Origin: a virus
IMG/VR virus record: IMGVR_UViG_3300034102_002101
Coordinates: 56,667 to 120,666 of that record
Length of the DNA stretch: 64,000 nt
Reading direction: 5' to 3' (one strand)
Positions within the stretch are counted from its first letter, which is position 1. Every line of letters begins with the position of its first letter. A model generated the notes under the pieces. That model searched no databases and was not told the origin of the DNA. It saw nothing but the letters and a program-made list of their open reading frames with translations. The position numbers and the translations under genes were made by a program. This document shows positions 47,476 to 64,000 of this stretch, one piece after another.

Positions 47476-48573
47476 CTAATTCTTAGTTATCTGATATAAT
47501 AATTTCTTTAGATCTTCTTTTGTTAATGATTTACTATTTAGAATCTTAAAAGCAAATCCGGAACGATTTGTCTCTTTTCCCCACATTTGGAATATTTTTT
47601 CTGCTGCATCTTTTCTAGAAAGAAGTTTTAGTGGTTCTACCCGCACCTTCATAGCATCCACCAATTTATTAACCTCTTTCATACCATCACAAATGATACT
47701 AGTAAATCCTAACACCATATTTGCACATTCAAAGTCGAATTTCTCAATTAACTTGGTTTGGAATTCTCCGTACTCGGGCATACCAAATTCAAAGAATAGA
47801 TCTACAGTAGATTCGAAATTTGCATTGGCTTTAAATCTATGCAATTTTAAATACTCTTCCGTCTTTAATTTGGATATACTTTGATCATTATTATGATATA
47901 CGCAGATACCCTCGATTCCAGTCATGGTTGGTAATTTTTCCAACATCTGTGCCATAGAATCGAACGTATATCTTACTGGTCGTTTAAATCCATTTGATTT
48001 TGCAAACATATCTAAACTATTTTGATTTTCATATGAATAATCATAGTGATGTATCATACCAGTTAATATGATATCTGGTTCTCCATGTCGCAAAACTATT
48101 GGATTTGTTGGTGTATTCCACTCAAATATCAATGATATATCAGATGTTCCACCAACAGAAGTTGAATACAAAATCTGATGTATTTGTGGATATCTGTTTA
48201 GAAACAAATCTATTTCATCTCCATTTTCTTGGTTTCTGGCGTTTATGGTTCCACGAGTACGTACAATCAGATTGTCTTTCCATAGGGAAAAAATTAAAGT
48301 TGATCCGTCTTCCTTGTTAATCAACGAACATTTATCGAAATTAATTGGAACTGGAAATATCTCCGGTTTCTCACCCCAATTACAGAATTTCAAAAACGAA
48401 ATACTCACTGGTAATCCGTCCTTATCCCATACAGATGAACGAAATATAACATTCTCTTTCGTCCAAACACAATTAATCTGTTTTGGTGTAACTAGATAAA
48501 CAGACTCTCCACCGAGAATGTGTTCGGTTACATAGAAAGATTCTCTATCGATGTCGCGTAAATTTATTTTCAT
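47476..48573 (-). CDS. T4 Rnl1-like RNA ligase
   Basis: KF.NWGE, KEDGS (motif I), TRG, FEW, EGIC, KLKTEEY. Confidence 0.75.
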   Translation of the reverse strand: MKINLRDIDRESFYVTEHILGGESVYLVTPKQINCVWTKENVIFRSSVWDKDGLPVSISFLKFCNWGEKPEIFPVPINFDKCSLINKEDGSTLIFSLWKDNLIVRTRGTINARNQENGDEIDLFLNRYPQIHQILYSTSVGGTSDISLIFEWNTPTNPIVLRHGEPDIILTGMIHHYDYSYENQNSLDMFAKSNGFKRPVRYTFDSMAQMLEKLPTMTGIEGICVYHNNDQSISKLKTEEYLKLHRFKANANFESTVDLFFEFGMPEYGEFQTKLIEKFDFECANMVLGFTSIICDGMKEVNKLVDAMKVRVEPLKLLSRKDAAEKIFQMWGKETNRSGFAFKILNSKSLTKEDLKKLLYQITKN

Positions 48574-55717: not shown

Positions 55718-56490
55718 TTATTTATTATCATACATATCAATAAAATTAACTCCATACTTTTTTTTCGCGTATTGGATAAATGGAAAAATTTCGTTCTTTC
55801 CTATAATTGTTAATTTTTTGTTGAATTGTGATTTTTTGGCTATCCACTGTGGAGAATCATATCCTTTTATTTCTAAGTATTCATTTTCTGCGATTTTAAA
55901 ATCTGGGAATACTTTTGTTTTTTATTATTAAAATAATAATCAAAACCATGTGTGTTTCTCTCAAACCATATATTATTGTCGATTGCATGTATTACCCAAG
56001 CTAGTTCCCAAGAACTATCGCACCAATAACCTTTATACCAACCAGATTTTCCTCTTCCACCTTTAGATCTATATCCACCACATTTAGAACAGTCCTTCCC
56101 AGCGTCTGCGCACTTTTTACAACAAAATTTTACTTTTTTTCGAGCGGTTAGAAAATTCTTTTTACATACCTCACAAATTTTATTAACTTTATTTCTTTTT
56201 TTTACAATCAAGCGTTTTGTAACTTCTCTTGTTTTATTTAATTCTTGTGCGCATTCCACACAACAACATTTTTTTATAAATTTTACTTTCTTTGTTGTGA
56301 AAGGGTTATTGCAATTTTTACAATTTATTTCAACTAAATCAGCACGTTTACTTTTTCCATTATGTGTCATTGCACACGAATAACAACAAAAAAATTCCGT
56401 CTTTCCGCGTTTTATTAATCTATTGTATTCTCCTATATATCTATCAAATGGCAAATCACAATTCGAGCAAATTAATGATATGGTCTTCAT
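55718..56490 (-). pseudogene. Zn-finger + PD-(D/E)XK (TnsA-like) free-standing endonuclease, frameshifted near 55908 (possibly a sequencing error)
   Basis: GWYKGYWCDSSWELAW; after a one-base shift continues Y.PDFKI...LEIKGY. Confidence 0.7.
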
Positions 56491-56543
56491 AAGTTATAAA
56501 TATACCCCAACAAGTCTTTCTTCCATAATTTTATTTTATTTAC

Positions 56544-56631
56544 TGGAGGAAAGTAATCGGATCGAACGATTGCCGTTTTAGCGACACTATAATTTTCGAA
56601 ATTATTTGAGGAACCAACCTCAGTACCTTCC
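56544..56631 (-). tRNA. tRNA-Ser(CGA)
   Basis: Cloverleaf, loop UUCGAAA, long variable arm, CCA. Confidence 0.8.
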
Positions 56632-56636
56632 GTAAG

Positions 56637-56726
56637 TGGGGTGAGCAACGAGATTTGCACTCGCACGGAATTTTACTTCCAGCAGCTTCACAGGCTACCA
56701 TGTCTTCTGATTTCATCATACTCACC
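56637..56726 (-). tRNA. tRNA-His(GUG), long variable arm
   Basis: G-1:C73 8-bp acceptor, loop CUGUGAA, CCA. Confidence 0.8.
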
Positions 56727-56734
56727 ATAAATAA

Positions 56735-56836
56735 ATCGTGTGGTTGGATTCGAACCAACGGCCCATGTATTATCCCTCTTTTTCGGTGTCATTTACCATC
56801 ATAGGGTACATTTATCTACCGCTGAATTACACACAA
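56735..56836 (-). ncRNA. tRNA-like RNA with expanded anticodon arm
   Basis: Acceptor UUGUGUG/CACACGA, D-loop AGCGGUA, T-arm GUUGG-UUCGAAU-CCAAC; ~50-nt arm in place of the anticodon arm; no CCA. Confidence 0.6.
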
Positions 56837-56839
56837 TTC

Positions 56840-56915
56840 TGGAGCTAGTAGTGGAATTTGCGTCCACATTTTCACATTACCGATGTGACACATCTGCTAT
56901 TTATGTTTTACCAGC
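56840..56915 (-). tRNA. tRNA-Thr(GGU)
   Basis: Cloverleaf, loop UCGGUAA, CCA. Confidence 0.75.
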
Positions 56916-56919
56916 GAAA

Positions 56920-57390
56920 TTAACTTGTTAATAAATTTATGGCATCGATTATATTTTTATCGGATATTCCTTTTTCCATCGTGGTCAATACCAATCTACT
57001 TTTTAATGATACGAAAATATCAACATCATCTAAAATTATAAAGTTATCAATTGGTTTATTTCTAACCAACCAATCAAGTATTTCATCTTCCCTTGTCTTT
57101 TTATACATTTCCGAAAAATCATTGGTATTCCAATCTGTATGTAAGTGATCTAGTAAAAAATTCTCTTTCAATCTATTATATAGATTATGGATATACCCTT
57201 CACCTATGCACATTTCGGAAAATACTCGGTGACTAGATGATATAACAATTTTAGAATTTGTTCTTTTAATTATACCCAACAAAGCACATACGGAATTCGT
57301 GTCAAATTCATAACACAAACCATTTGATGTTTTCTGTGGTTTATTAGTTACCAATACCCCATCGATGTCTAAAAATATAATTTTGTTCAT
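56920..57390 (-). CDS. HAD-family phosphatase (Swiss-army-knife RNA-repair-like HAD domain)
   Basis: IFLDIDGVL, IVISSS.R, R..EI..WL, ILDD. Confidence 0.75.
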   Translation of the reverse strand: MNKIIFLDIDGVLVTNKPQKTSNGLCYEFDTNSVCALLGIIKRTNSKIVISSSHRVFSEMCIGEGYIHNLYNRLKENFLLDHLHTDWNTNDFSEMYKKTREDEILDWLVRNKPIDNFIILDDVDIFVSLKSRLVLTTMEKGISDKNIIDAINLLTS

Positions 57391-57396
57391 AAATTG

Positions 57397-57472
57397 TGGA
57401 GGACTATCGAGGATTGAACTCGTGTAAGTTGATCCCGAAGGCATCAACAGACATTTCCATATAATATAGCCC
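57397..57472 (-). ncRNA. tRNA-like RNA without D-stem or anticodon (tmRNA TLD-like)
   Basis: Acceptor GGGCUAU/AUAGUCC with G3.U70, stem GUUGAU/AUCAAC capped by cUUCGg, T-loop UUCAAUC, CCA. Confidence 0.6.
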
Positions 57473-57563
57473 ATAAATTGTCACCCCAATTTGAAAAAGG
57501 AGTGAGAAAACTTTTCATGTTTTTTATAGAGTCTCAAGGAAAAGTATAAATAACACTGACTCT

Positions 57564-57637
57564 TGGCTGGGGCTGATGGTATTGCGCCATCTTGTGAAGG
57601 TTCAGAATCTCCCATAATACTTTTATATGAAACCCCA
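57564..57637 (-). tRNA. tRNA-Gln(CUG)
   Basis: Cloverleaf, loop UUCUGAA, GCCA end. Confidence 0.75.
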
Positions 57638-57691
57638 AGAATTACCGCGATAACGACAGTATCAACAACATGAACCATTGGTTCATATGAG

Positions 57692-57765
57692 TGGTAGCCC
57701 AACGGAGAATTAAACTCCGACATTCATCTTGAGAGGATGAAAACCTATCCTTAGTTTATTGGGCC
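57692..57765 (-). tRNA. tRNA-Glu(CUC)
   Basis: Cloverleaf, loop CUCUCAA, CCA. Confidence 0.8.
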
Positions 57766-57774
57766 ACAAAATAT

Positions 57775-58224
57775 TCAATTACCGAATATTGAAAAATTCT
57801 TTACTTCAATCTTTTCTCCAACCTTTACTTGAAGTGATCGGATCATTTCATTAACTTTAACGAATCCGTCTCTCACGAATGGTTGATCAACTAACTCTTC
57901 TACTGTTTTTGGTTCCATTGCTACAATATGCAAAACCAAATCATTTCCAAGTTTAGAAAATTCTTCCGTGTTTGATACAAAATCTGTTTCAGAAAAAAGA
58001 TGAACCATTGCACCTTTCTTTCCACCAGTATGTATATAAGAAAAAACTCTACCAGAACCAGATTGTCGATTCTGCATTCTTTCTATTTTTCTACCTACCA
58101 AGTCAGTTGATGCCAATATAGCTTTATCTATATCGCCACCATTTTCTTTTAATAGCTTTGAACATTGGGCAATACCAAGTCCAGTGGATTTTCTCAATTC
58201 AGTTACTAATTTTGTTATATTCAT
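57775..58224 (-). CDS. tsf: Translation elongation factor Ts (short form)
   Basis: LVTELRKSTGLGI..C...L.E..GDIDKA; YIH.G.K.G.MV...SETDFV; GEKIEV..F. Confidence 0.88.
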   Translation of the reverse strand: MNITKLVTELRKSTGLGIAQCSKLLKENGGDIDKAILASTDLVGRKIERMQNRQSGSGRVFSYIHTGGKKGAMVHLFSETDFVSNTEEFSKLGNDLVLHIVAMEPKTVEELVDQPFVRDGFVKVNEMIRSLQVKVGEKIEVKNFSIFGN

Positions 58225-58268
58225 TTTGTATCATAGATATCATCTCAGTCATTAGAGAAGCATCTAAG

Positions 58269-58358
58269 TGGTGGGTGAGGTTGGAGTTGCACCAACGAAG
58301 CCCGAGGGCTAATGTTTTACAGACACTTGGGACTAGCTGACAGTCCACACTCACACCC
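58269..58358 (-). tRNA. tRNA-Tyr(GUA), atypical acceptor and D arms
   Basis: Loop CUGUAAA, variable arm AGCCC/GGGCU, CCA. Confidence 0.75.
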
Positions 58359-58362
58359 GAAA

Positions 58363-58545
58363 TTATTTTTTATCCAATTCAGAAAGAACAGATTTTAAAG
58401 TTCTTCCATTTCTTTCGCAATAGCATTTATATCCATCTTCGTTTTGTTTTAATGTCCATTCTTCTATACACCCAGAACACCAAAATATTTCCTTGATTTC
58501 TTTCTTAGTAAAGAAAGATAAAATTAGATTGAACAATTTTTTCAT
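58363..58545 (-). CDS. Small hypothetical protein
   Basis: CxxC/CxC; fills the gap between tRNAs. Confidence 0.4.
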   Translation of the reverse strand: MKKLFNLILSFFTKKEIKEIFWCSGCIEEWTLKQNEDGYKCYCERNGRTLKSVLSELDKK

Positions 58546-58621
58546 AAATTAAATGTGACCACGACAATAGATTAAATCTATCAACTGTCAACTGTGTAAT
58601 CGTCCTCCCGTATTACACCGC

Positions 58622-58696
58622 TGGTGGGAATACCAAGAATCAAACTTGGACTAAAACCTTCGCAAAGTTTTGTGCGATTCATTACACTATACTCCC
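58622..58696 (-). tRNA. tRNA-Arg(GCG)
   Basis: Cloverleaf, loop UUGCGAA, CCA. Confidence 0.75.
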
Positions 58697-58794
58697 ATAA
58701 TTTTACTTGGTCCGATTCACACGGAACATTTCCTGTTTGTTGGAAATTTAAGAGCAGAATAGATATAACTCTAGTCTCGTTTCGCTCTAAGCAG

Positions 58795-58894
58795 TGGTGG
58801 TCTAGTTAGATTTGAACCTATTTCATTACTATGTACATCTGGTAGTACAATTTCCGACTCATAGTAACTACACGGAACTTATTTCCGTTAGACC
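58795..58894 (-). ncRNA. tRNA-like RNA with expanded anticodon arm
   Basis: Acceptor GGUCUA/UAGACC + ACCA, D-like CGGAA/UUCCG, 9-bp GUUACUAUG/CAUAGUAAU enclosing ~26 nt, T-loop UUCAAAU. Confidence 0.6.
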
Positions 58895-58898
58895 GTAA

Positions 58899-58973
58899 TG
58901 GTGCTCCATGACGGTTACGCTCCGTCCTCTGAAAATTGGCAATTTCCCATATTAACTAATATACGAATGAAGC
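58899..58973 (-). tRNA. tRNA-Gly(GCC)
   Basis: Cloverleaf, loop UUGCCAA, CCA. Confidence 0.8.
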
Positions 58974-59054
58974 ATAAATATAAACCATAAATCATCTTTC
59001 GATGCTTCTTCACATATAGGAATTAACCACCAATGAAGATGTATTTATATTTAA

Positions 59055-59140
59055 TGGCAGGGAGGGTGAGACTTGAACTCACAGGAATCTTTCGATATGC
59101 AGTTTTGGAGACTGCTGCAATGCCATTATGCGACCACCCT
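59055..59140 (-). tRNA. tRNA-Trp(CCA), long variable arm
   Basis: Loop CUCCAAA; variable AUC-GAAA-GAU; GCCA end. Confidence 0.8.
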
Positions 59141-59235
59141 ATAAACTTGTAATAATTTTAAGACAGGGTGTTTAATCAACCTCGACCTCGGTGTTGAATA
59201 TTACGCCACCCAAGAGATCTCAATTTAATGAGAAT

Positions 59236-59319
59236 TGGAGCAAGTGGTGGGAATCGAACCCACTGCATAGTTTCCCATAAAGGCTTATGAAACCTCTTTT
59301 CACCCGGAGAATCACTTGC
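59236..59319 (-). tRNA. tRNA-Met/Ile2(CAU), long variable arm
   Basis: Loop UUCAUAA; variable AUGG-GAAA-CUAU; canonical T-arm; CCA. Confidence 0.7.
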
Positions 59320-59324
59320 GTAAA

Positions 59325-59597
59325 TTAACTTAAAATGGACTTACACCATTTACTTTTTAGTTCGATTGATAGTGTACTAACTAAAATACTTTCTATCTTA
59401 TCGACGATATCTGATATTATTGAATCAATCACTACATTTGTTGTGTATTTATCATATGGACTTTCTAAACACATACATTCATATTCTTTACCAATCCTTA
59501 ACAATCTTTCTTGGAAGATACTATCTTCAAATTTAGGTGTTTTAAATTTGGTATCGAACCTTATTTCGTAGATACTTAATTTTTCTCTTATTGTCAT
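59325..59597 (-). CDS. Hypothetical protein
   Basis: Preceded by a TTGACA promoter near 59626-59631. Confidence 0.45.
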   Translation of the reverse strand: MTIREKLSIYEIRFDTKFKTPKFEDSIFQERLLRIGKEYECMCLESPYDKYTTNVVIDSIISDIVDKIESILVSTLSIELKSKWCKSILS

Positions 59598-59726
59598 AAA
59601 TACACATTACTATATAATTTAATATTGTCAATCAAAAATGTACCTAGTAAAACTCGTCAGTTTTGTTCACATGTTATTTCATGATCTTCTGGTTCGGTGA
59701 TATTTTCATATCGCCCGTTACGGTAA

Positions 59727-59802
59727 TGGTCGAGATACTTGGAATCAAACCAAGATTCCAGATTTAGGAAATCCGTGTATTGTTCATTTATACGATACCT
59801 CG
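59727..59802 (-). tRNA. tRNA-Arg(CCU)
   Basis: Cloverleaf, loop UUCCUAA, CCA. Confidence 0.8.
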
Positions 59803-59879
59803 ATTATAAATATTATTTCGATCCCAAGTTTAACCACCTGTGGAAGCATTTCATCAACCTTTGTCGAATCGAATATAAA

Positions 59880-59955
59880 TGGTAGGAAACCACGGATTCG
59901 AACCGTGAACCTTTTCGATGTAAACGAATTGCGCTAACCGTTGCGCCAGTCTCCC
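59880..59955 (-). tRNA. tRNA-Val(UAC)
   Basis: Canonical cloverleaf, CCA. Confidence 0.85.
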
Positions 59956-59968
59956 ATATTACAAACTG

Positions 59969-60040
59969 AGCTAGATGTGGGATTTGCACCCACTTTTCAA
60001 GTTTACGAAACTCGCACATATCTTCATATGTTTATCCAGC
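59969..60040 (-). tRNA. tRNA-Thr(CGU)
   Basis: Cloverleaf, loop UUCGUAA; CCA not fully encoded. Confidence 0.8.
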
Positions 60041-60042
60041 AA

Positions 60043-60132
60043 TGGTGCCTCCGGTTGGACTCGAACCAACATTTGTGTCCTTGTGTGCCAAACATTTTAA
60101 GTGTTCCGAATAAACCATTCTTCTACGGAGGC
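60043..60132 (-). tRNA. tRNA-Leu(UAA)
   Basis: Loop CUUAAAA, long variable region, CCA. Confidence 0.8.
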
Positions 60133-60135
60133 AAA

Positions 60136-60222
60136 TGGTGGGTAATGTGGGCAACGATCCCACACGATATTTCTATCCTTAGTTTTTGAAACTAAGCTGT
60201 ATGCCAATTCCAGCAATTACCC
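60136..60222 (-). tRNA. tRNA-Leu(CAA)
   Basis: Loop UUCAAAA, variable arm, CCA. Confidence 0.8.
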
Positions 60223-60226
60223 AAAA

Positions 60227-61141
60227 TTAAACTTTACTATATTTTACCTTCTCCCAATATCCTCTTGGTTTCATCTGCAAATCGTACGCTTTGCACCATT
60301 TCCTAATAGCGTTGTCTGATACATTATATTGTTTTGCTATTTGTACGATTGGTGTGTTCTCTATCATTTTACTTAAATCTTCTTTTGATGGTCTATCTTT
60401 TACTCTTCTATTAGATAAACCAATTTTAGTTACCCATTCCTTCGACTTATTCGATCCGTTATATTCACTCTTTTGATGTGATACTTCAATACTATCGATT
60501 GGTTCTACAAATGGTTTCTTTACTAGATGTGGAAGTAATTTTTTTAATCTGTTATAATTTGTTCCAGTTGTCATGTTCATCTTTAACATCACTTGTCGTA
60601 TGTTTGTGCAGTTTTCGGAAGCTTTTTTGATATCTTCGTCCGAATATCTATTTTGAACATTTGAACAATATGTGTCAGTTTGTGAGTGACAATTTGGACA
60701 TAAAAATCTCAAATTTTCTAATCTGTTATCGTTATTTATTCCATTTATATGATCTAAGTGCAGGTTTATTGGTCTGTTATTCCAATTGTCGATTAACCCA
60801 CATTCTCCGCACATATATGGAATAAATTTTTCTTGTATTATACACTTTTTTATCATCGATCTACCCGTCTTTGAATTAACACAAAAATGTTTTTCCATTG
60901 GATTACCAGACTTCGTTGGATACGTTATTATATTCTTTCCCTTTGACCATCCTTGCCCAAGAAAATGTTCCGTTGAAATATTGTATTTTTTTATTGCATT
61001 TTTTAGTCGCCTAATCGCACCGTTACCCTGCTTAAAATTCATATTTTTTATTAAGCACGTAAAAGAAGTTGATATTTTAACATTTTCACGTAACAATTTT
61101 ATATTTTCATCTGTCCATTTATACCATTTAAATTTGTTCAT
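60227..61141 (-). mobile_element. HNH homing endonuclease with HTH domains, inserted in the tRNA array
   Basis: C..CG...LHLDHING...DNRLENLRFLCPNCHSQT; C-terminal IAK.YNVSDNAIRKWC. Confidence 0.85.
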
Positions 61142-61194
61142 ATATTATAAGTATAATGGTAAACACGAAAACGTGTAGAATTCTTTATTATTTT

Positions 61195-61272
61195 TGGTAC
61201 TCATTGAGGGATTCGAACCCATCACTTTACAAATTCTAAATTTGTTGCCGCTACCAATTGGGCTAAATGAGC
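61195..61272 (-). tRNA. tRNA-Leu(UAG), short variable region
   Basis: Loop UUUAGAA, CCA. Confidence 0.75.
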
Positions 61273-61499
61273 ATAAATATATCTGATTCAACGAGACTTG
61301 CATACCCGTATTTACATTCTAACGAAAATAATGAGTCTCTGCAATATTTTTAATATTCTGTAATCTACGGTATCAACTCTTTACTACCGCAATGCTGTTT
61401 ATATTCTCTCCAGCAGTCAAGCCTATGGATCATCAACGGCTTTCTCTAAATTTTTAGCCCCCAATGTTACAATTTCTCATAACACCGGAAATGGGTAAT

Positions 61500-61575
61500 T
61501 GGTGGTGCCCACGGGATTTGCACCCGTTGCCTTACGGTTATCAACCATATGCTCATCTATATGAGCTTGAACACC
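61500..61575 (-). tRNA. tRNA-Ile(GAU)
   Basis: Loop UUGAUAA, CCA. Confidence 0.8.
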
Positions 61576-61676
61576 ATAAACTAATTTATCTCTGGACAAT
61601 CTTATCTAAATATTGTCGTGTTAGGTTACTGTTAGATCAGTCAATCCAATCACATCACATCACATCAGAAATAAAA

Positions 61677-61767
61677 TGGAGGAAGAAGTAGGATTTGAAC
61701 CCACGGGACGCTATTAACATCCTTCGCATTTCAAGTGCGGTGCCTTAAACCACTCAGCCATTCTTCC
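61677..61767 (-). tRNA. tRNA-Ser(UGA)
   Basis: Canonical type II cloverleaf, CCA. Confidence 0.88.
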
Positions 61768-61869
61768 TTAAATTGTCCTCCAAATACATGGAGGTAGTAA
61801 CATTTGCCGTTTCTTCCACCATAGTTTGTTCACGTTATATACCGTATATGGTTTAAGTTACCTAGAAAC

Positions 61870-61944
61870 TGGTGCAACGGACAGGATTTGAACCTGCAAC
61901 AGCCTGTTTGGAAAACAGGGACTCTACCATTGAGCTACCGATGC
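61870..61944 (-). tRNA. tRNA-Gly(UCC)
   Basis: Canonical cloverleaf, CCA. Confidence 0.88.
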
Positions 61945-61961
61945 ATTTAATCTAACTTCAC

Positions 61962-61990
61962 TAACATAACATAAATATTATCTATGTCAA
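61962..61990 (-). promoter_or_regulatory. sigma70-like internal promoter of the tRNA array
   Basis: TTGACA-N17-TATGTT upstream of tRNA-Gly. Confidence 0.55.
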
Positions 61991-62012
61991 ACTTTTTCGT
62001 ATAAATTTATAC

Positions 62013-62106
62013 TGGCGGAAAACGAGGGGATCGAACCCTCACCGGGTTTTAAAGTCCGGAACTGTTTAGCAAACAATCGTAACAAACCAATATTTACCTG
62101 CTTTCC
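62013..62106 (-). tRNA. tRNA-Ser(GCU)
   Basis: Loop UUGCUAA, long variable arm, GCCA. Confidence 0.8.
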
Positions 62107-62216
62107 GTAAAATTTCAAGAGGAATTGAACCTCTACTTACCATGCAGTGACACGGGAGAAAGAATTTACTTTCTGCCATCACTACCCAAGCTAACGAGCC
62201 TATGTTAAATAGGTTT

Positions 62217-62291
62217 TGGAGCCAGATCTCGGTATTGCGCCGAGCTATTTCCTTTTGCAGAGGAACCCATGCACTTGCTTGGTCATCTGGC
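62217..62291 (-). tRNA. tRNA-Cys(GCA)
   Basis: Loop CUGCAAA, U73, CCA. Confidence 0.8.
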
Positions 62292-62354
62292 GAAAATTAT
62301 ACTCATCCATTATTCACATAAAATAAATTAGAGGTGTGATGAGTGTGTTTTTAA

Positions 62355-62577
62355 CTATAAGTTGTGTTGTTACACCAAAAGGATGGTACAGGAGCGACCC
62401 GTGTTAAGCTCTTGTCAATTCAAGAGATCTTACTAACTCATAACTGTTCACCACCATACAGACAACTTTTCAGTTGCCAGAGATCCATTCTATGGAACAA
62501 TCGGGCTGTCTCTTTCGTTAGGTGTTACGATCCTACTCATTATTCGATGGCTACCTCTAGGCCCACGATGCTAATAG
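62355..62577 (-). ncRNA. Structured RNA containing a 23S rRNA uL11-binding (H43-H44) mimic
   Basis: GUGGGCCUAGAGGUAGCCAUC...AAUGAGU-[insert closed by AGGAU/AUCCU]-GGUGUAACAACAC; closing stem CUAUUAG/CUUAUAG. Confidence 0.7.
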
Positions 62578-62584
62578 ATAAAAA

Positions 62585-62669
62585 TGGCTCCAGAGGAAGG
62601 TAACGCTCCTTCATAGGTCTTTCGACCACGCATTAACAGTGCGCTGCATTGCTTGTCTGCCACTCTGGA
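62585..62669 (-). tRNA. tRNA-Asn(GUU), long variable arm
   Basis: Loop CUGUUAA; variable GGUC-GAAA-GACC; GCCA. Confidence 0.8.
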
Positions 62670-62798
62670 ATGTCGTAATATCTCCTCAATATTGTTACGT
62701 TTATCTCTATGGTTATAACACGTTAAATTAGTTATATATAGATTTGCCCTCACATGTCGATTGAGTGACTACAGGGCTAGTCGCCATGATATTACAAG

Positions 62799-62873
62799 TG
62801 GTGGTACATCGGGGTAACGATCCCCGTTCTCAACCTTAAGAGGGTAGAGCATCACCATTAATGCTTATGTACC
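62799..62873 (-). tRNA. tRNA-Lys(CUU)
   Basis: Loop CUCUUAA, CCA. Confidence 0.8.
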
Positions 62874-62883
62874 AAAAACTAAC

Positions 62884-62960
62884 TGGCTGGGGCAGGTGGA
62901 GTTGAACCACCGTGTTTCGCTTCAAAGGCGACCATAATAAGACCGTTATATGATACCCCA
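62884..62960 (-). tRNA. tRNA-Gln(UUG)
   Basis: Loop CUUUGAA, GCCA. Confidence 0.8.
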
Positions 62961-63065
62961 GTAAATTTTTCTCTTCATCACAAATAGGAGATTATAGAGT
63001 ATTGCTTTCCATCTTTACTCAAGCCTACTACCAGTGGGTTAATGGTTATTTACAATGAAGAAAAA

Positions 63066-63144
63066 TGGTGGTCCGTGTGGGCGATGCTCCCACTACCTAT
63101 CCGTTATAAGCGGAGTGCTCTAACTAATCGTGAGCTAACAGACC
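63066..63144 (-). tRNA. tRNA-Ile(UAU)
   Basis: Loop CUUAUAA, CCA. Confidence 0.75.
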
Positions 63145-63152
63145 ATAAAAAG

Positions 63153-63301
63153 TGGACGGTGACGAGAGGATTTGAACCTCCAATTAATCGTCTTATACAA
63201 AGAGTGCAATCTCCATATAATCTTAAATTAATTTTTATTTCAGTAACCATATTGAAATTTAAACAGATGCACCCGTTTATTTCTCTCAACTGAACATCCC
63301 G
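63153..63301 (-). ncRNA. ~149-nt tRNA-like RNA (acceptor + T-arm, large central domain)
   Basis: CGGGAUG/CGUC(A)CCG-UCCA, T-arm GGAGG-UUCAAAU-CCUCU, internal GGGUGCA/UGCACUC stem. Confidence 0.55.
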
Positions 63302-63307
63302 ATAAAA

Positions 63308-63455
63308 TGGTTGACTCGACGGGTATCACACCCTAAACCTTTCGCAATTTCTTCGTCGTTTTTATAGCTAATATTACACGAATAATTAATTGTTACTCCG
63401 TTGACATTCCTTCAGCGCGTATATGCTGCTGCTCCAATTCTTGAGCTACAAATCA
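63308..63455 (-). ncRNA. tRNA-like RNA with ~75-nt insert in the anticodon arm
   Basis: Acceptor UGAUUUG/CGAGUCA-ACCA, canonical D-stem GCUC/GAGC, T-like GGG-UGUGAUA-CCC. Confidence 0.6.
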
Positions 63456-63531
63456 TGGTGGAGAATACCGGCTTTGCTCCGGTCGCCTATTGCTTGCAAA
63501 GCAATTGCTCTACTGAATGAGCTAATTCCCC
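63456..63531 (-). tRNA. tRNA-Ala(UGC)
   Basis: GGGGAAU acceptor with G3.U70, loop UUUGCAA, CCA. Confidence 0.85.
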
Positions 63532-63822
63532 ATAATTAATTTTAACAATAACAGCTTTAAGCTCCCCACCTTCTCATTAGAGTAAAACCGTGACATTGAA
63601 CAAAGAATTTACTTTGTTCGATCACTAATGGTATCTGTTTATGAGTTACATCGATTGTTAAAAGTAATATATGTAGATTATTTTAACCATTTACATATTA
63701 TGTGGGGCTACGATATTTTTAACGTTGTCTTATCATCCACTTGTATCCCTTCATTAAAGGCAGTATAACAACGAGAACTTGATTAGAATTTCTTCCTATA
63801 CGTGGTCCTTAGTCACGCTTGG

Positions 63823-63900
63823 TGGCCCCACCGGAGAATTTCGCAATCTCGACCTTCGGAGTTTCAAACCGATGCTCTACGTAATCTGAGCTACAGTGGG
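63823..63900 (-). tRNA. tRNA-Phe(GAA), atypical
   Basis: Acceptor CCCACUG/CGGUGGG, loop UUGAAAC, followed by CCACCA. Confidence 0.65.
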
Positions 63901-64000
63901 ATAAAATCTTTAGTTTATACGGTCAGATGAATCGTTTGTTAATCCGTATAATAAACCTACTTCCAAATCATCAGCTTGGGTTTTTCGGAACTAAAATGGT

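What the first reader, a model, noticed from the sequence alone, without database searches (positions are those of the whole stretch)
56735..63455. Family of tRNA-shaped RNAs whose anticodon arm is replaced by larger domains
Seen: 56735-56836, 58795-58894, 63153-63301 and 63308-63455 keep a paired acceptor stem and T-arm (three have CCA, three have a D-like arm) but carry about 45-110 nt of unrelated structured sequence in place of the anticodon stem-loop. The inserts are too short for group I introns. Inference: they may be cargo RNAs that use a tRNA scaffold for RNase P processing and stability, decoys for anticodon nucleases or uncharged-tRNA sensors, or pre-tRNAs spliced by proteins. The phage encodes an Rnl1-like ligase and a HAD phosphatase.
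Basis: partly seen in the sequence, partly recalled or inferred. Interest (0 to 1): 0.75.

Follow-up and report, generated by a model that had tools for sequence, protein, structure and literature searches.

The report
tRNA-framed small RNAs in lake phage
A large lake-water phage carries four genes shaped like transfer RNAs but with extra folded RNA where the codon-reading loop should be; one belongs to a conserved, unnamed family found in many lake phages, and they most likely act as stable carriers of an RNA module rather than as decoders.

Summary
All four elements are real and lie on the minus strand inside a tRNA array of a T4-like lake phage. They are not one sequence family. Element c1 (56734-56838) is a tRNA-Ile(GAU)-derived RNA. 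It keeps its D arm, T arm and 5-bp anticodon stem, and carries a 30-nt insert between positions 32 and 33. A 21-mer from the insert found 13 other IMG/VR contigs. Across 15 copies (12 distinct), 12 of 30 pairs show compensatory changes. The closing stem is 8-9 bp. None of the 15 copies encodes CCA, against 21 of 22 neighbouring tRNAs. The insert core is better conserved than the frame, and position 33 and the anticodon remnant are not conserved. This points to a non-decoding tRNA-framed module, not an intron. Elements c2-c4 (58795-58894, 63153-63301, 63308-63455) have tRNA-like ends with CCA and tight tRNA spacing, but no relatives were found beyond near-identical strains. Elements c3 and c4 resemble phage T4 stable RNAs C and D in position and architecture only; a T4 rnaC model does not score c3 above ordinary tRNAs. 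No EndA or RtcB gene was found. No RNA data exist. This scan noted the c1 family before on other DNA (e1-6054240), with the same reading.

The parts
56734..56838 (-). c1: tRNA-Ile(GAU)-derived framed RNA. It has an 8-9 bp closing stem, D arm, 5-bp anticodon stem, 5-nt variable loop and a canonical T arm. No CCA.
   Evidence: ARAGORN with introns. Rfam tRNA model 30.6 bits. 15-copy alignment A4 and pair counts. Model R2 scores it 124.7 bits.
56776..56805 (-). c1 insert: 30 nt between positions 32 and 33. It forms a 3-4 bp helix with the loop remnants, an internal loop, the GGU/ACC helix and the 7-nt apical loop AAAUGAC.
   Evidence: In the diverged paralogue L117b the core is 23 of 26 identical, against 54 of 69 for the frame.
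58795..58894 (-). c2: tRNA-like ends (6 bp plus one mismatch, then A and CCA), a 5-bp hairpin at the D position, a 9-bp stem with a 27-nt loop at the anticodon position, and a degenerate T arm with a UUCAAAU loop.
   Evidence: No relatives found.
63153..63301 (-). c3: closing stem of 7 bp with one bulged A, then U and CCA. Two long hairpins are joined by an A-rich linker. The T arm is canonical.
   Evidence: Absent from one related contig in run X3.
63308..63455 (-). c4: 7-bp closing stem, then A and CCA. It has a canonical D arm, a 4-bp hairpin with an 8-nt loop, about 78 nt of weakly structured RNA, and a 3-bp T-like stem with a 7-nt loop. It starts directly after the CCA of tRNA-Ala.
   Evidence: Kept in the X3 relative, with no listed change between 63339 and 63537.
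56544..63900 (-). The tRNA array that holds the four elements. ARAGORN finds 22 tRNAs by default, and Rfam finds more.
56920..57474 (-). HAD_SAK_2 RNA-repair-type HAD phosphatase ORF inside the array (context only).
   Evidence: Pfam PF18143, E=4.7e-22. Found in G000 only, of the five contigs searched.
47476..48573 (-). T4 RnlA-like RNA ligase (context only).
   Evidence: phrog_562, E=3.7e-32. A homologue with 42% identity is in G002.

Best explanation
The four elements are non-decoding small RNAs built on a tRNA frame.

How it most likely works: they are transcribed with the tRNA array. Host RNase P and the 3' trimming enzymes cut them out like tRNAs, because the stacked closing stem and T arm and the D/T elbow are kept. 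The frame gives a defined, stable RNA. The RNA that sits where the anticodon loop should be is the working part, held at the tip of the long arm.

c1 arose from a tRNA-Ile(GAU) copy by a 30-nt insertion. It now has a sealed end: an 8-9 bp stem and no NCCA tail. It therefore cannot be charged, and its invariant internal loop and apical loop are read by a partner that is still unknown.

c2-c4 are lineage-specific RNAs of the same design that keep a CCA end. Cutting the 5' end of c4 also frees the CCA end of tRNA-Ala.

Shown: the frames, the conservation pattern of c1 and the covariation in c1. Inferred: the processing, the stability, and that the module is the functional part. Unknown: the partner. 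My rough split for the partner is: a tRNA-directed host defence or stress factor about 25%, the ribosome or a translation factor about 15%, something else for the rest.
For: c1 family:
- A 21-mer from the insert hits 13 IMG/VR contigs.
- Alignment A4 holds 15 copies, 12 of them distinct.
- 92.8% of cells are paired. 12 of 30 pairs have changes on both sides. 0 of 500 shuffles reach this. Slid controls give at most 4 such pairs.
- Pair -1:73 is A-U in 7 and U-A in 5 of the 12 distinct rows.
- None of the 15 copies has CCA. By contrast, 21 of 22 window tRNAs and 144 of 148 tRNAs in the relatives' loci do.
- The pair between insert column 39 and position 33 is A-U in 9 rows, C-G in 2 and G-C in 1. 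The same C-G/A-U swap shows up in contigs of runs X2 and X4.
- In paralogue L117b, which lacks the 21-mer used for the first search and turned up by BLAST, the core is 23 of 26 identical and the frame 54 of 69.
- c1 is the only part of the 7.5-kb array found in all 5 whole contigs searched, at 81-84% identity. The RNA ligase of G002 is only 42% identical.

c2-c4:
- Their ends are intact, they have CCA, and the spacers are 0-8 nt.
- In one X3 contig no change is listed in 63339-63537. That stretch is most of c4 plus tRNA-Ala. The spacer 63538-63821 shows 27 listed substitutions plus indels.

Precedent: T4 rnaC has the same kind of frame, with 23 of 49 pairs compensatory. Its role is still unknown (passage read in PMC3014915).
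Against: - No RNA data exist. None of the 24 listed runs is on record as RNA, so expression, RNA ends and size are unproven.
- The 21 nt of the c1 core are identical by construction in 14 of the 15 copies, because they were the search pattern.
- c2-c4 have no relatives. Two 20-mer scans of IMG/VR gave 0 hits. blastn against 13 loci and 5 whole contigs found none. The cultured-phage collection gave none.
- c3, together with tRNA-Ile(UAU), is replaced by 81 other letters in an X3 contig.
- The fold of c4 is no more stable than shuffles (z = +0.59).
- The T arms of c2 and c4 are degenerate.
- Nine differences in the X3 contig were not displayed and could lie in c4.
- In 4 of 12 distinct c1 copies the letters flanking the insert still read as an intact Ile anticodon loop. 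An intron would also leave that.
- No partner for any module is known.
Confidence: 0.55

Rival explanations
1. They are intron-containing pre-tRNAs. An endonuclease removes the inserts, and the phage's RNA-repair enzymes (HAD-type phosphatase, Rnl1-like ligase) rejoin the halves to give working tRNAs.
For: ARAGORN with introns parses c1 and its relatives as Ile(gat), Phe(gaa) or Met with an intron of 13-30 nt. In L106, L109, L110 and L111 the flanks read C + UGAUAA, an ordinary Ile(GAU) loop. In the relatives, a 137-nt tRNA-Asn(GUU)-like gene with a 51-nt insert at 33/34 keeps CU + GUUAA and a CCA end. The window encodes a HAD_SAK_2 protein inside the array and an RnlA-like ligase. Lak megaphage tRNAs are reported to have conserved introns of unknown splicing (PMC6784885, passages read).
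Against: In c1 the loop remnant varies: GAU in 5 distinct copies, GAA followed by U in 6, and none in L117b. Position 33 is G in the window, compensated inside the insert. Positions -1:73 always pair, and none of the 15 copies has CCA. The insert is better conserved than the would-be exons. I saw no bulge-helix-bulge layout by eye. There is no EndA (PF01974) and no RtcB (PF01139) in G000, G001, G002, G003 or G006, and G002 is complete. HAD_SAK_2 is missing from G002, which has c1. A canonical tRNA-Ile(gat) already exists at 61500-61575. ARAGORN finds no sensible tRNA in c2-c4, even at low thresholds.
Confidence: 0.1
2. They are decoys or inhibitors. The tRNA-shaped body is bound by a host tRNA-cutting defence nuclease or another tRNA-binding enzyme. 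The altered anticodon region prevents cleavage or traps the enzyme.
For: Context only. The array holds an RNA-repair-type HAD gene and the phage has an RnlA-like ligase. From recalled knowledge of T4 Pnkp/Rnl1 versus PrrC, these enzymes answer anticodon nucleases. The parents of the two insert-bearing families are Ile(GAU) and Asn(GUU) tRNAs. The frames keep the elbow and the stacked stems.
Against: A decoy needs the nuclease's recognition site, usually the anticodon loop, and that is what has been disrupted. A decoy role does not explain the near-invariant insert of c1. No defence system or host is known for this phage.
Confidence: 0.2
3. c2, c3 and c4 are decaying or disrupted tRNA genes, that is, scars of insertions in a fast-changing array. 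They have no function of their own. c1 is excluded from this reading.
For: No relatives were found for c2-c4. c3 is missing from an X3 contig. The T arms of c2 and c4 are degenerate, and c4 has z = +0.59. Array content differs widely among related contigs.
Against: All three keep a full closing stem, a CCA end and tRNA-like spacing. The 5' end of c4 abuts the CCA of tRNA-Ala. c4 has no listed change in a contig whose next spacer is about 20% diverged. Decay does not add 45-110 nt.
Confidence: 0.15

Closest known systems
Phage T4 small stable RNAs: species 1 (rnaC, 139 nt) and species 2 (rnaD, 119 nt)
   Same: They are encoded in tandem, 6 nt apart, inside the tRNA cluster and right after a tRNA, like c4 and c3. 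rnaC has a 7-bp closing stem, two long arms joined by an A-rich linker, and a canonical T arm, all backed by covariation. That is the layout of c3. Their function is unknown (PMC3014915, passage read; PMC12685909, passages read).
   Different: There is no detectable homology. The rnaC model scores c3 at 14.1 bits and ordinary tRNAs at 17 bits. rnaC encodes no CCA, whereas c3 and c4 do. In rnaC the two arm loops pair over 6 nt in 7 of 7 sequences, but the c3 loops share only a 4-nt self-complementary word. rnaD shows no tRNA frame in its fold.
'Enigmatic' conserved introns in Lak megaphage tRNAs (Devoto et al. 2019, PMC6784885; passages read)
   Same: These are phage tRNA genes with short, highly conserved inserts in the anticodon region, no known splicing route and no Rfam class.
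   Different: They were treated as introns of decoding tRNAs. The c1 data argue against decoding.
Canonical tRNA-Ile(GAU), Rfam RF00005
   Same: c1 keeps the D arm with GG, a 5-bp anticodon stem, a 5-nt variable loop and the T arm (30.6 bits). The best hit of the c1 model outside the family is the tRNA-Ile(gat) of L106, at 53.3 bits.
   Different: c1 has a 37-nt loop region instead of a 7-nt loop, an 8-9 bp closing stem, no CCA, and a variable anticodon remnant.
Engineered tRNA-scaffold RNAs, and natural tRNA mimics such as the tmRNA tRNA-like domain and YrlA Y RNAs
   Same: A tRNA-shaped part gives processing and stability to another RNA part.
   Different: c1-c4 have no G3.U70 pair. At 100-149 nt they are far shorter than tmRNA. 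In YrlA, as I recall it, the free ends lie at the other end of the molecule. None was matched by Rfam.

Membership tests
tRNA (Rfam RF00005) | Score at or above the gathering cut-off of 29 bits | tested here: met
   Applies to c1 only: 30.6 bits, E=0.0025. c2, c3 and c4 have no RF00005 match at E<=10.
tRNA (decoding) | 7-nt anticodon loop with a conserved U33 and a conserved anticodon | tested here: not met
   c1 has 37 nt between the stem strands. Position 33 is G in the window. The remnant is GAU, GAA or none among 12 distinct copies. c2-c4 give no sensible anticodon.
tRNA (chargeable) | Single-stranded NCCA 3' end | tested here: not met
   Not met for c1: 0 of 15 copies have CCA, and -1:73 is paired in 12 of 12 distinct rows. 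c2-c4 do encode CCA, so the feature is met for those three.
T4 rnaC (species 1 RNA) family | Score of a covariance model built from 7 Tevenvirinae rnaC sequences, above the tRNA background | tested here: not met
   c3 scores 14.1 bits and is out of register. Ordinary tRNAs score up to 17 bits. c1, c2 and c4 are not picked out.
T4 rnaC (species 1 RNA) family | Layout: closing stem, two long arms with an A-rich linker, and a T arm | tested here: met
   Applies to c3 only.
T4 rnaC (species 1 RNA) family | 6-nt pairing between the two arm loops | tested here: inconclusive
   rnaC: 7 of 7 sequences paired, with one compensatory change. c3: the loops share only UGCA. I estimate chance at a few percent.
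Protein-spliced tRNA intron (archaeal/eukaryal type) | Bulge-helix-bulge at the exon-intron borders | tested here: not met
   Judged by eye on A4. There is a 4-6 nt bulge on the 3' strand only, and no 3-nt bulge followed by a helix on the 5' strand.
Protein-spliced tRNA intron (archaeal/eukaryal type) | Splicing endonuclease (PF01974) and RtcB (PF01139) available | tested here: not met
   0 of 5 phage contigs for each family, including the complete G002. The control genomes gave hits. The host genome is unknown, so host enzymes could not be tested.
Group I intron in tRNA | Rfam group I match, and a length of about 200 nt or more (length recalled) | tested here: not met
   No such match at E<=10 in 56400-64000. 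The inserts are 30 to about 110 nt.
tmRNA | ARAGORN or Rfam tmRNA call, and a G3.U70 acceptor pair | tested here: not met
   No tmRNA call at these places. The third pairs are G-C, U-A, G-C and A-U.

The most novel reading that the evidence does not exclude
Large freshwater phages, and T4 with its RNAs C and D, use the tRNA shape as a general chassis for small RNA 'tools'. On this reading the invariant 30-nt module of c1 is a natural aptamer-like element, delivered on a sealed, unchargeable tRNA-Ile body. It binds and disables a host factor that normally handles tRNA, such as a defence nuclease, a stress sensor or a ribosomal site. c2-c4 would be younger tools of the same kind. This would give a function to a class of phage RNAs that has been unexplained since the 1970s.
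Probability: 0.3. Interest if true: 0.8.

Novelty: new variant of a known kind. Interest (0 to 1): 0.6.

Why it matters
Phage tRNA arrays are usually read as codon-supply kits. Here at least one member is a conserved, non-decoding RNA in which the tRNA body looks like packaging and the insert looks like the payload.

The c1 family is absent from Rfam as its own family and from 50,697 cultured-phage records. I found it in none of the papers my searches returned.

It offers a compact, testable model of 105 nt, with known invariant loops, for what tRNA-shaped phage RNAs such as T4 RNAs C and D do.

It also warns annotators that 'intron-containing' phage tRNAs called by ARAGORN or tRNAscan may not be tRNAs.

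Tried and rejected
Relatives through proteins:
- The search for related loci with the array ORFs and the ligase found nothing in viral contigs.
- The EF-Ts alignment found only distant EF-Ts genes in metagenome contigs and genome contigs. Among the fetched loci of 3 kb or more, only one besides T4 had 3 or more tRNAs, and it had 4.

Expression:
- No RNA holder is listed among the 24 runs.
- Read laying gave contigs only, so it shows neither RNA ends nor expression level.

Homology of c3 to T4 rnaC: rejected on the model score.

c1 module in other scaffolds:
- The 17-mer core hit 20 loci. Thirteen were the known contigs. The other 7 are unrelated contexts with no R2 match.

Repeats:
- c1-c4 have no second copy in the 120-kb contig. 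The only short matches are to T arms.

Motifs:
- By eye, against recalled consensus patterns, the c1 insert fits neither a hammerhead core, a kink-turn, a box C/D pair nor the 11-nt tetraloop receptor. This is not a formal test.
- A short ORF starts at the AUG AUG in the c1 insert. Its changes fall at second codon positions, and L117b has no nearby stop, so I dropped a tmRNA-like or peptide reading.

Promoter and terminator scan: not above shuffles.

Supplements were closed. The list of 10,006 candidate RNAs in PMC10690425 and Supplementary Table 6 of PMC6784885 may hold c1-like entries that I could not see.

Full report
Setting. The window is the last 64 kb of a 120,666-bp IMG/VR virus record, which CheckV rates 47% complete. 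The genes mark a distant T4-like myovirus: a baseplate wedge protein, a Dda-like helicase and an RnlA-like RNA ligase. From 56544 to at least 63900 the minus strand is a tRNA array. ARAGORN finds 22 tRNAs by default, and 28 with introns allowed and a lowered threshold. Rfam adds more. There are no tRNAs in the first 56.6 kb of the contig. Two protein genes inside the array are of note. One is a HAD domain of the 'Swiss Army Knife' RNA-repair type (56920-57474, PF18143, E=4.7e-22). The other is a short EF-Ts (57775-58224).

The observation. c4 begins at the base after the CCA of tRNA-Ala. c3 follows c4 after 6 nt and is followed by tRNA-Ile(UAU) after 8 nt. c2 follows tRNA-Gly(GCC) after 4 nt. 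c1 lies 6 nt after an Rfam-only tRNA and 9 nt before tRNA-His. c2, c3 and c4 end in CCA; c1 does not. Default ARAGORN and Rfam at gathering threshold call none of them. With more permissive filters, Rfam's tRNA model reaches 30.6 bits on c1 against a cut-off of 29, and finds nothing on c2-c4. Fold z-scores against shuffles are modest: -1.50, -2.04, -2.29 and +0.59. The four share no sequence beyond T-arm letters.

c1 is a member of a conserved family. ARAGORN with introns reads c1 as tRNA-Ile(gat) with a 30-nt insert between positions 32 and 33, and no CCA. Contigs of runs X2 and X4 showed a variant of c1 in which a C-G pair inside the insert had become A-U. A 21-mer from the part of the insert that was unchanged in that variant then hit 13 IMG/VR contigs of 23 to 296 kb. 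With a second copy in L117 found by BLAST, this gives 15 copies, 12 of them distinct (A4).

On a structure that I wrote from the alignment, 92.8% of cells pair and 12 of 30 pairs have changes on both sides. None of 500 shuffles reaches either value, and sliding the partners by 1-3 columns gives at most 4 such pairs. The helices behave as follows:
- The closing stem has 7 of 9 pairs with compensatory changes.
- Pair -1:73 is A-U in 7 rows and U-A in 5, never broken.
- The ninth pair holds in 9 of 12 rows.
- The anticodon stem has 4 of 5 pairs compensatory.
- The T arm is invariant.

Inside the insert, a 3-4 bp helix joins the first insert letters to the old positions 33-34. Its middle pair is A-U in 9 rows, C-G in 2 and G-C in 1. 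Next comes an internal loop (AUGAU opposite G-N-AAAAG), then the GGU/ACC helix, then the loop AAAUGAC.

The model built from A4 scores family members at 111-141 bits and everything else at 53 bits or less. The best outside hit is the canonical tRNA-Ile(gat) of L106. When five whole contigs were searched with the 7.5-kb array, c1 was the only piece found in all five, at 81-84% identity. By comparison, the RNA ligase of the complete 296-kb genome G002 is 42% identical to the window's. No cultured phage has c1.

Why c1 is not read as a spliced tRNA.
First, the seven letters around the insert are not kept. They read C+UGAUAA in 4 distinct copies, C+GGAUAA in the window, C+UGAAUA in 6, and nothing loop-like in L117b. 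The window's G at position 33 is matched by a change in the insert, so selection keeps the pair and not U33.
Second, no copy encodes CCA, whereas 21 of 22 tRNAs of the window and 144 of 148 in the relatives' loci do (some loci are near-duplicates). Positions -1 and 73 pair, which leaves no free NCCA.
Third, the insert is the best-kept part. In L117b, which lacks the 21-mer, the core is 23 of 26 identical to L117a and the frame 54 of 69. For the other 14 copies, 21 of these 26 core letters are identical by construction.
Fourth, I saw no bulge-helix-bulge. No EndA or RtcB gene is present in G000, G001, G002, G003 or G006. The HAD gene is in G000 only.
Fifth, the window already has a normal tRNA-Ile(gat).
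Splicing by an unknown route is not excluded, since no RNA data exist.

c2, c3 and c4. No relatives were found beyond identical contigs in other lake runs:
- blastn of the array against the 13 loci and 5 whole contigs found none.
- Two 20-mer scans of IMG/VR found none.
- The cultured-phage collection gave none.
So there is no covariation test for these three.

What speaks for function is their form: full closing stems, CCA, and tRNA spacing, with the 5' cut of c4 also making the 3' end of tRNA-Ala. One comparison adds to this. In an X3 contig, the stretch 63308-63851 is kept, with 36 substitutions and 31 gap letters. All 27 displayed substitutions lie at 63538 or beyond, in the spacer, and none lies in 63339-63537. 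Nine were not displayed.

The same contig replaces 63065-63307, which holds tRNA-Ile(UAU) and c3, by 81 other letters. c3 is therefore dispensable or cassette-like.

In structure, c3 is a four-way junction with two long arms and a canonical T arm. c2 has a 9-bp stem with a 27-nt loop at the anticodon position. c4 has a true D arm, a 4-bp hairpin with an 8-nt loop, and then about 78 nt of weakly folded RNA. ARAGORN at low thresholds gives only spurious parses.

Comparison with what is known. T4 encodes rnaD and rnaC in tandem, 6 nt apart, behind tRNA-Arg. Homologues of rnaC sit inside the tRNA arrays of other Tevenvirinae. Seven aligned sequences support a closing stem, two arms and a T arm, with 22 of 44 predicted pairs compensatory. 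They also support a 6-nt pairing between the two arm loops, held in 7 of 7 sequences with one compensatory change. This is the layout of c3, and c4 plus c3 repeat the tandem position. But the rnaC model does not lift c3 above ordinary tRNAs (14.1 against 17 bits). The likeness is therefore one of design, not shown descent. The role of RNAs C and D is unknown (PMC3014915, passage). Lak megaphage tRNAs with conserved 'enigmatic' introns are the other near case (PMC6784885, passages).

Earlier notes of this scan. One note reports the c1 family in another genome with the same conclusion (e1-6054240). Others report families of tRNA-framed RNAs in lake phages. I reached the c1 result before reading them and tested it here.

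Verdict. c1 is a solid, conserved, non-decoding tRNA-framed RNA of unknown partner. c2-c4 are plausible lineage-specific RNAs of the same design, but they lack comparative support. This is a new variant of a known but unexplained kind.

Noticed in passing
L112:4152-4288 (-), L118:694-830 (+), L108:8216-8352 (-), L114:8676-8812 (-), L107:3455-3591 (+): The relatives carry a second insert-bearing family. It is a 137-nt tRNA-Asn(GUU)-like gene with a 51-nt insert at 33/34, intact CU+GUUAA flanks, discriminator G and CCA. It often lies next to a normal tRNA-Asn. The anticodon stem and a GGCC/GGCC helix change in step between L112 and L114. It is not present in the window.
   Followed up: partly
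L112:3780-3960 (-), L108:7560-7745 (-), L107:4380-4570 (+): Just downstream of the c1 homologues lie two more tRNA-like RNAs of about 80 nt that ARAGORN does not call. One has a 9-bp closing stem and no CCA. The other has a 7-8 bp stem, CCA and an odd T loop.
   Followed up: no
L001:2909-3047 (-) and alignment A3: In T4 species 1 RNA (rnaC), the loops of the two long arms are complementary over 6 nt (UUGACG with CGUCAA). This holds in 7 of 7 Tevenvirinae sequences. In Yersinia phage TG1 both sides changed together. The papers I read for rnaC do not mention it.
   Followed up: partly
window 57775-58224 (-): A 149-aa EF-Ts homologue (PF00889) sits inside the tRNA array. It has homologues of 60-98% identity in metagenomes, and its nearest cellular relatives (38-39% identity) are in Patescibacteria MAGs.
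   Followed up: partly
window 56637-62669 (-): Several tRNAs that are normally class I carry long variable arms: His 89 nt, Trp 86 nt, Met 84 nt and Asn 85 nt. Many tRNAs also have non-standard T loops, for example in Lys, Leu(CAA), Asn, Gly(GCC), Ala and Cys.
   Followed up: no
window 62110-62201 (-): ARAGORN calls a 92-nt tRNA with a four-base anticodon (aaat) and a long variable arm.
   Followed up: no
window 56843-56915, 59969-60040, 62887-62960 (-): Rfam finds tRNAs here (40.9, 42 and 46.4 bits) that default ARAGORN misses. By eye, the one at 59969-60040 appears to lack CCA.
   Followed up: no
window 63065-63307: In one contig of run X3 this stretch, which holds tRNA-Ile(UAU) and c3, is replaced by 81 other letters while both flanks are kept. 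This is a presence/absence difference within the array.
   Followed up: partly
window 62153-62176 and 63598-63620: Two hairpins in different spacers share the same loop and have stems that differ by paired changes.
   Followed up: no
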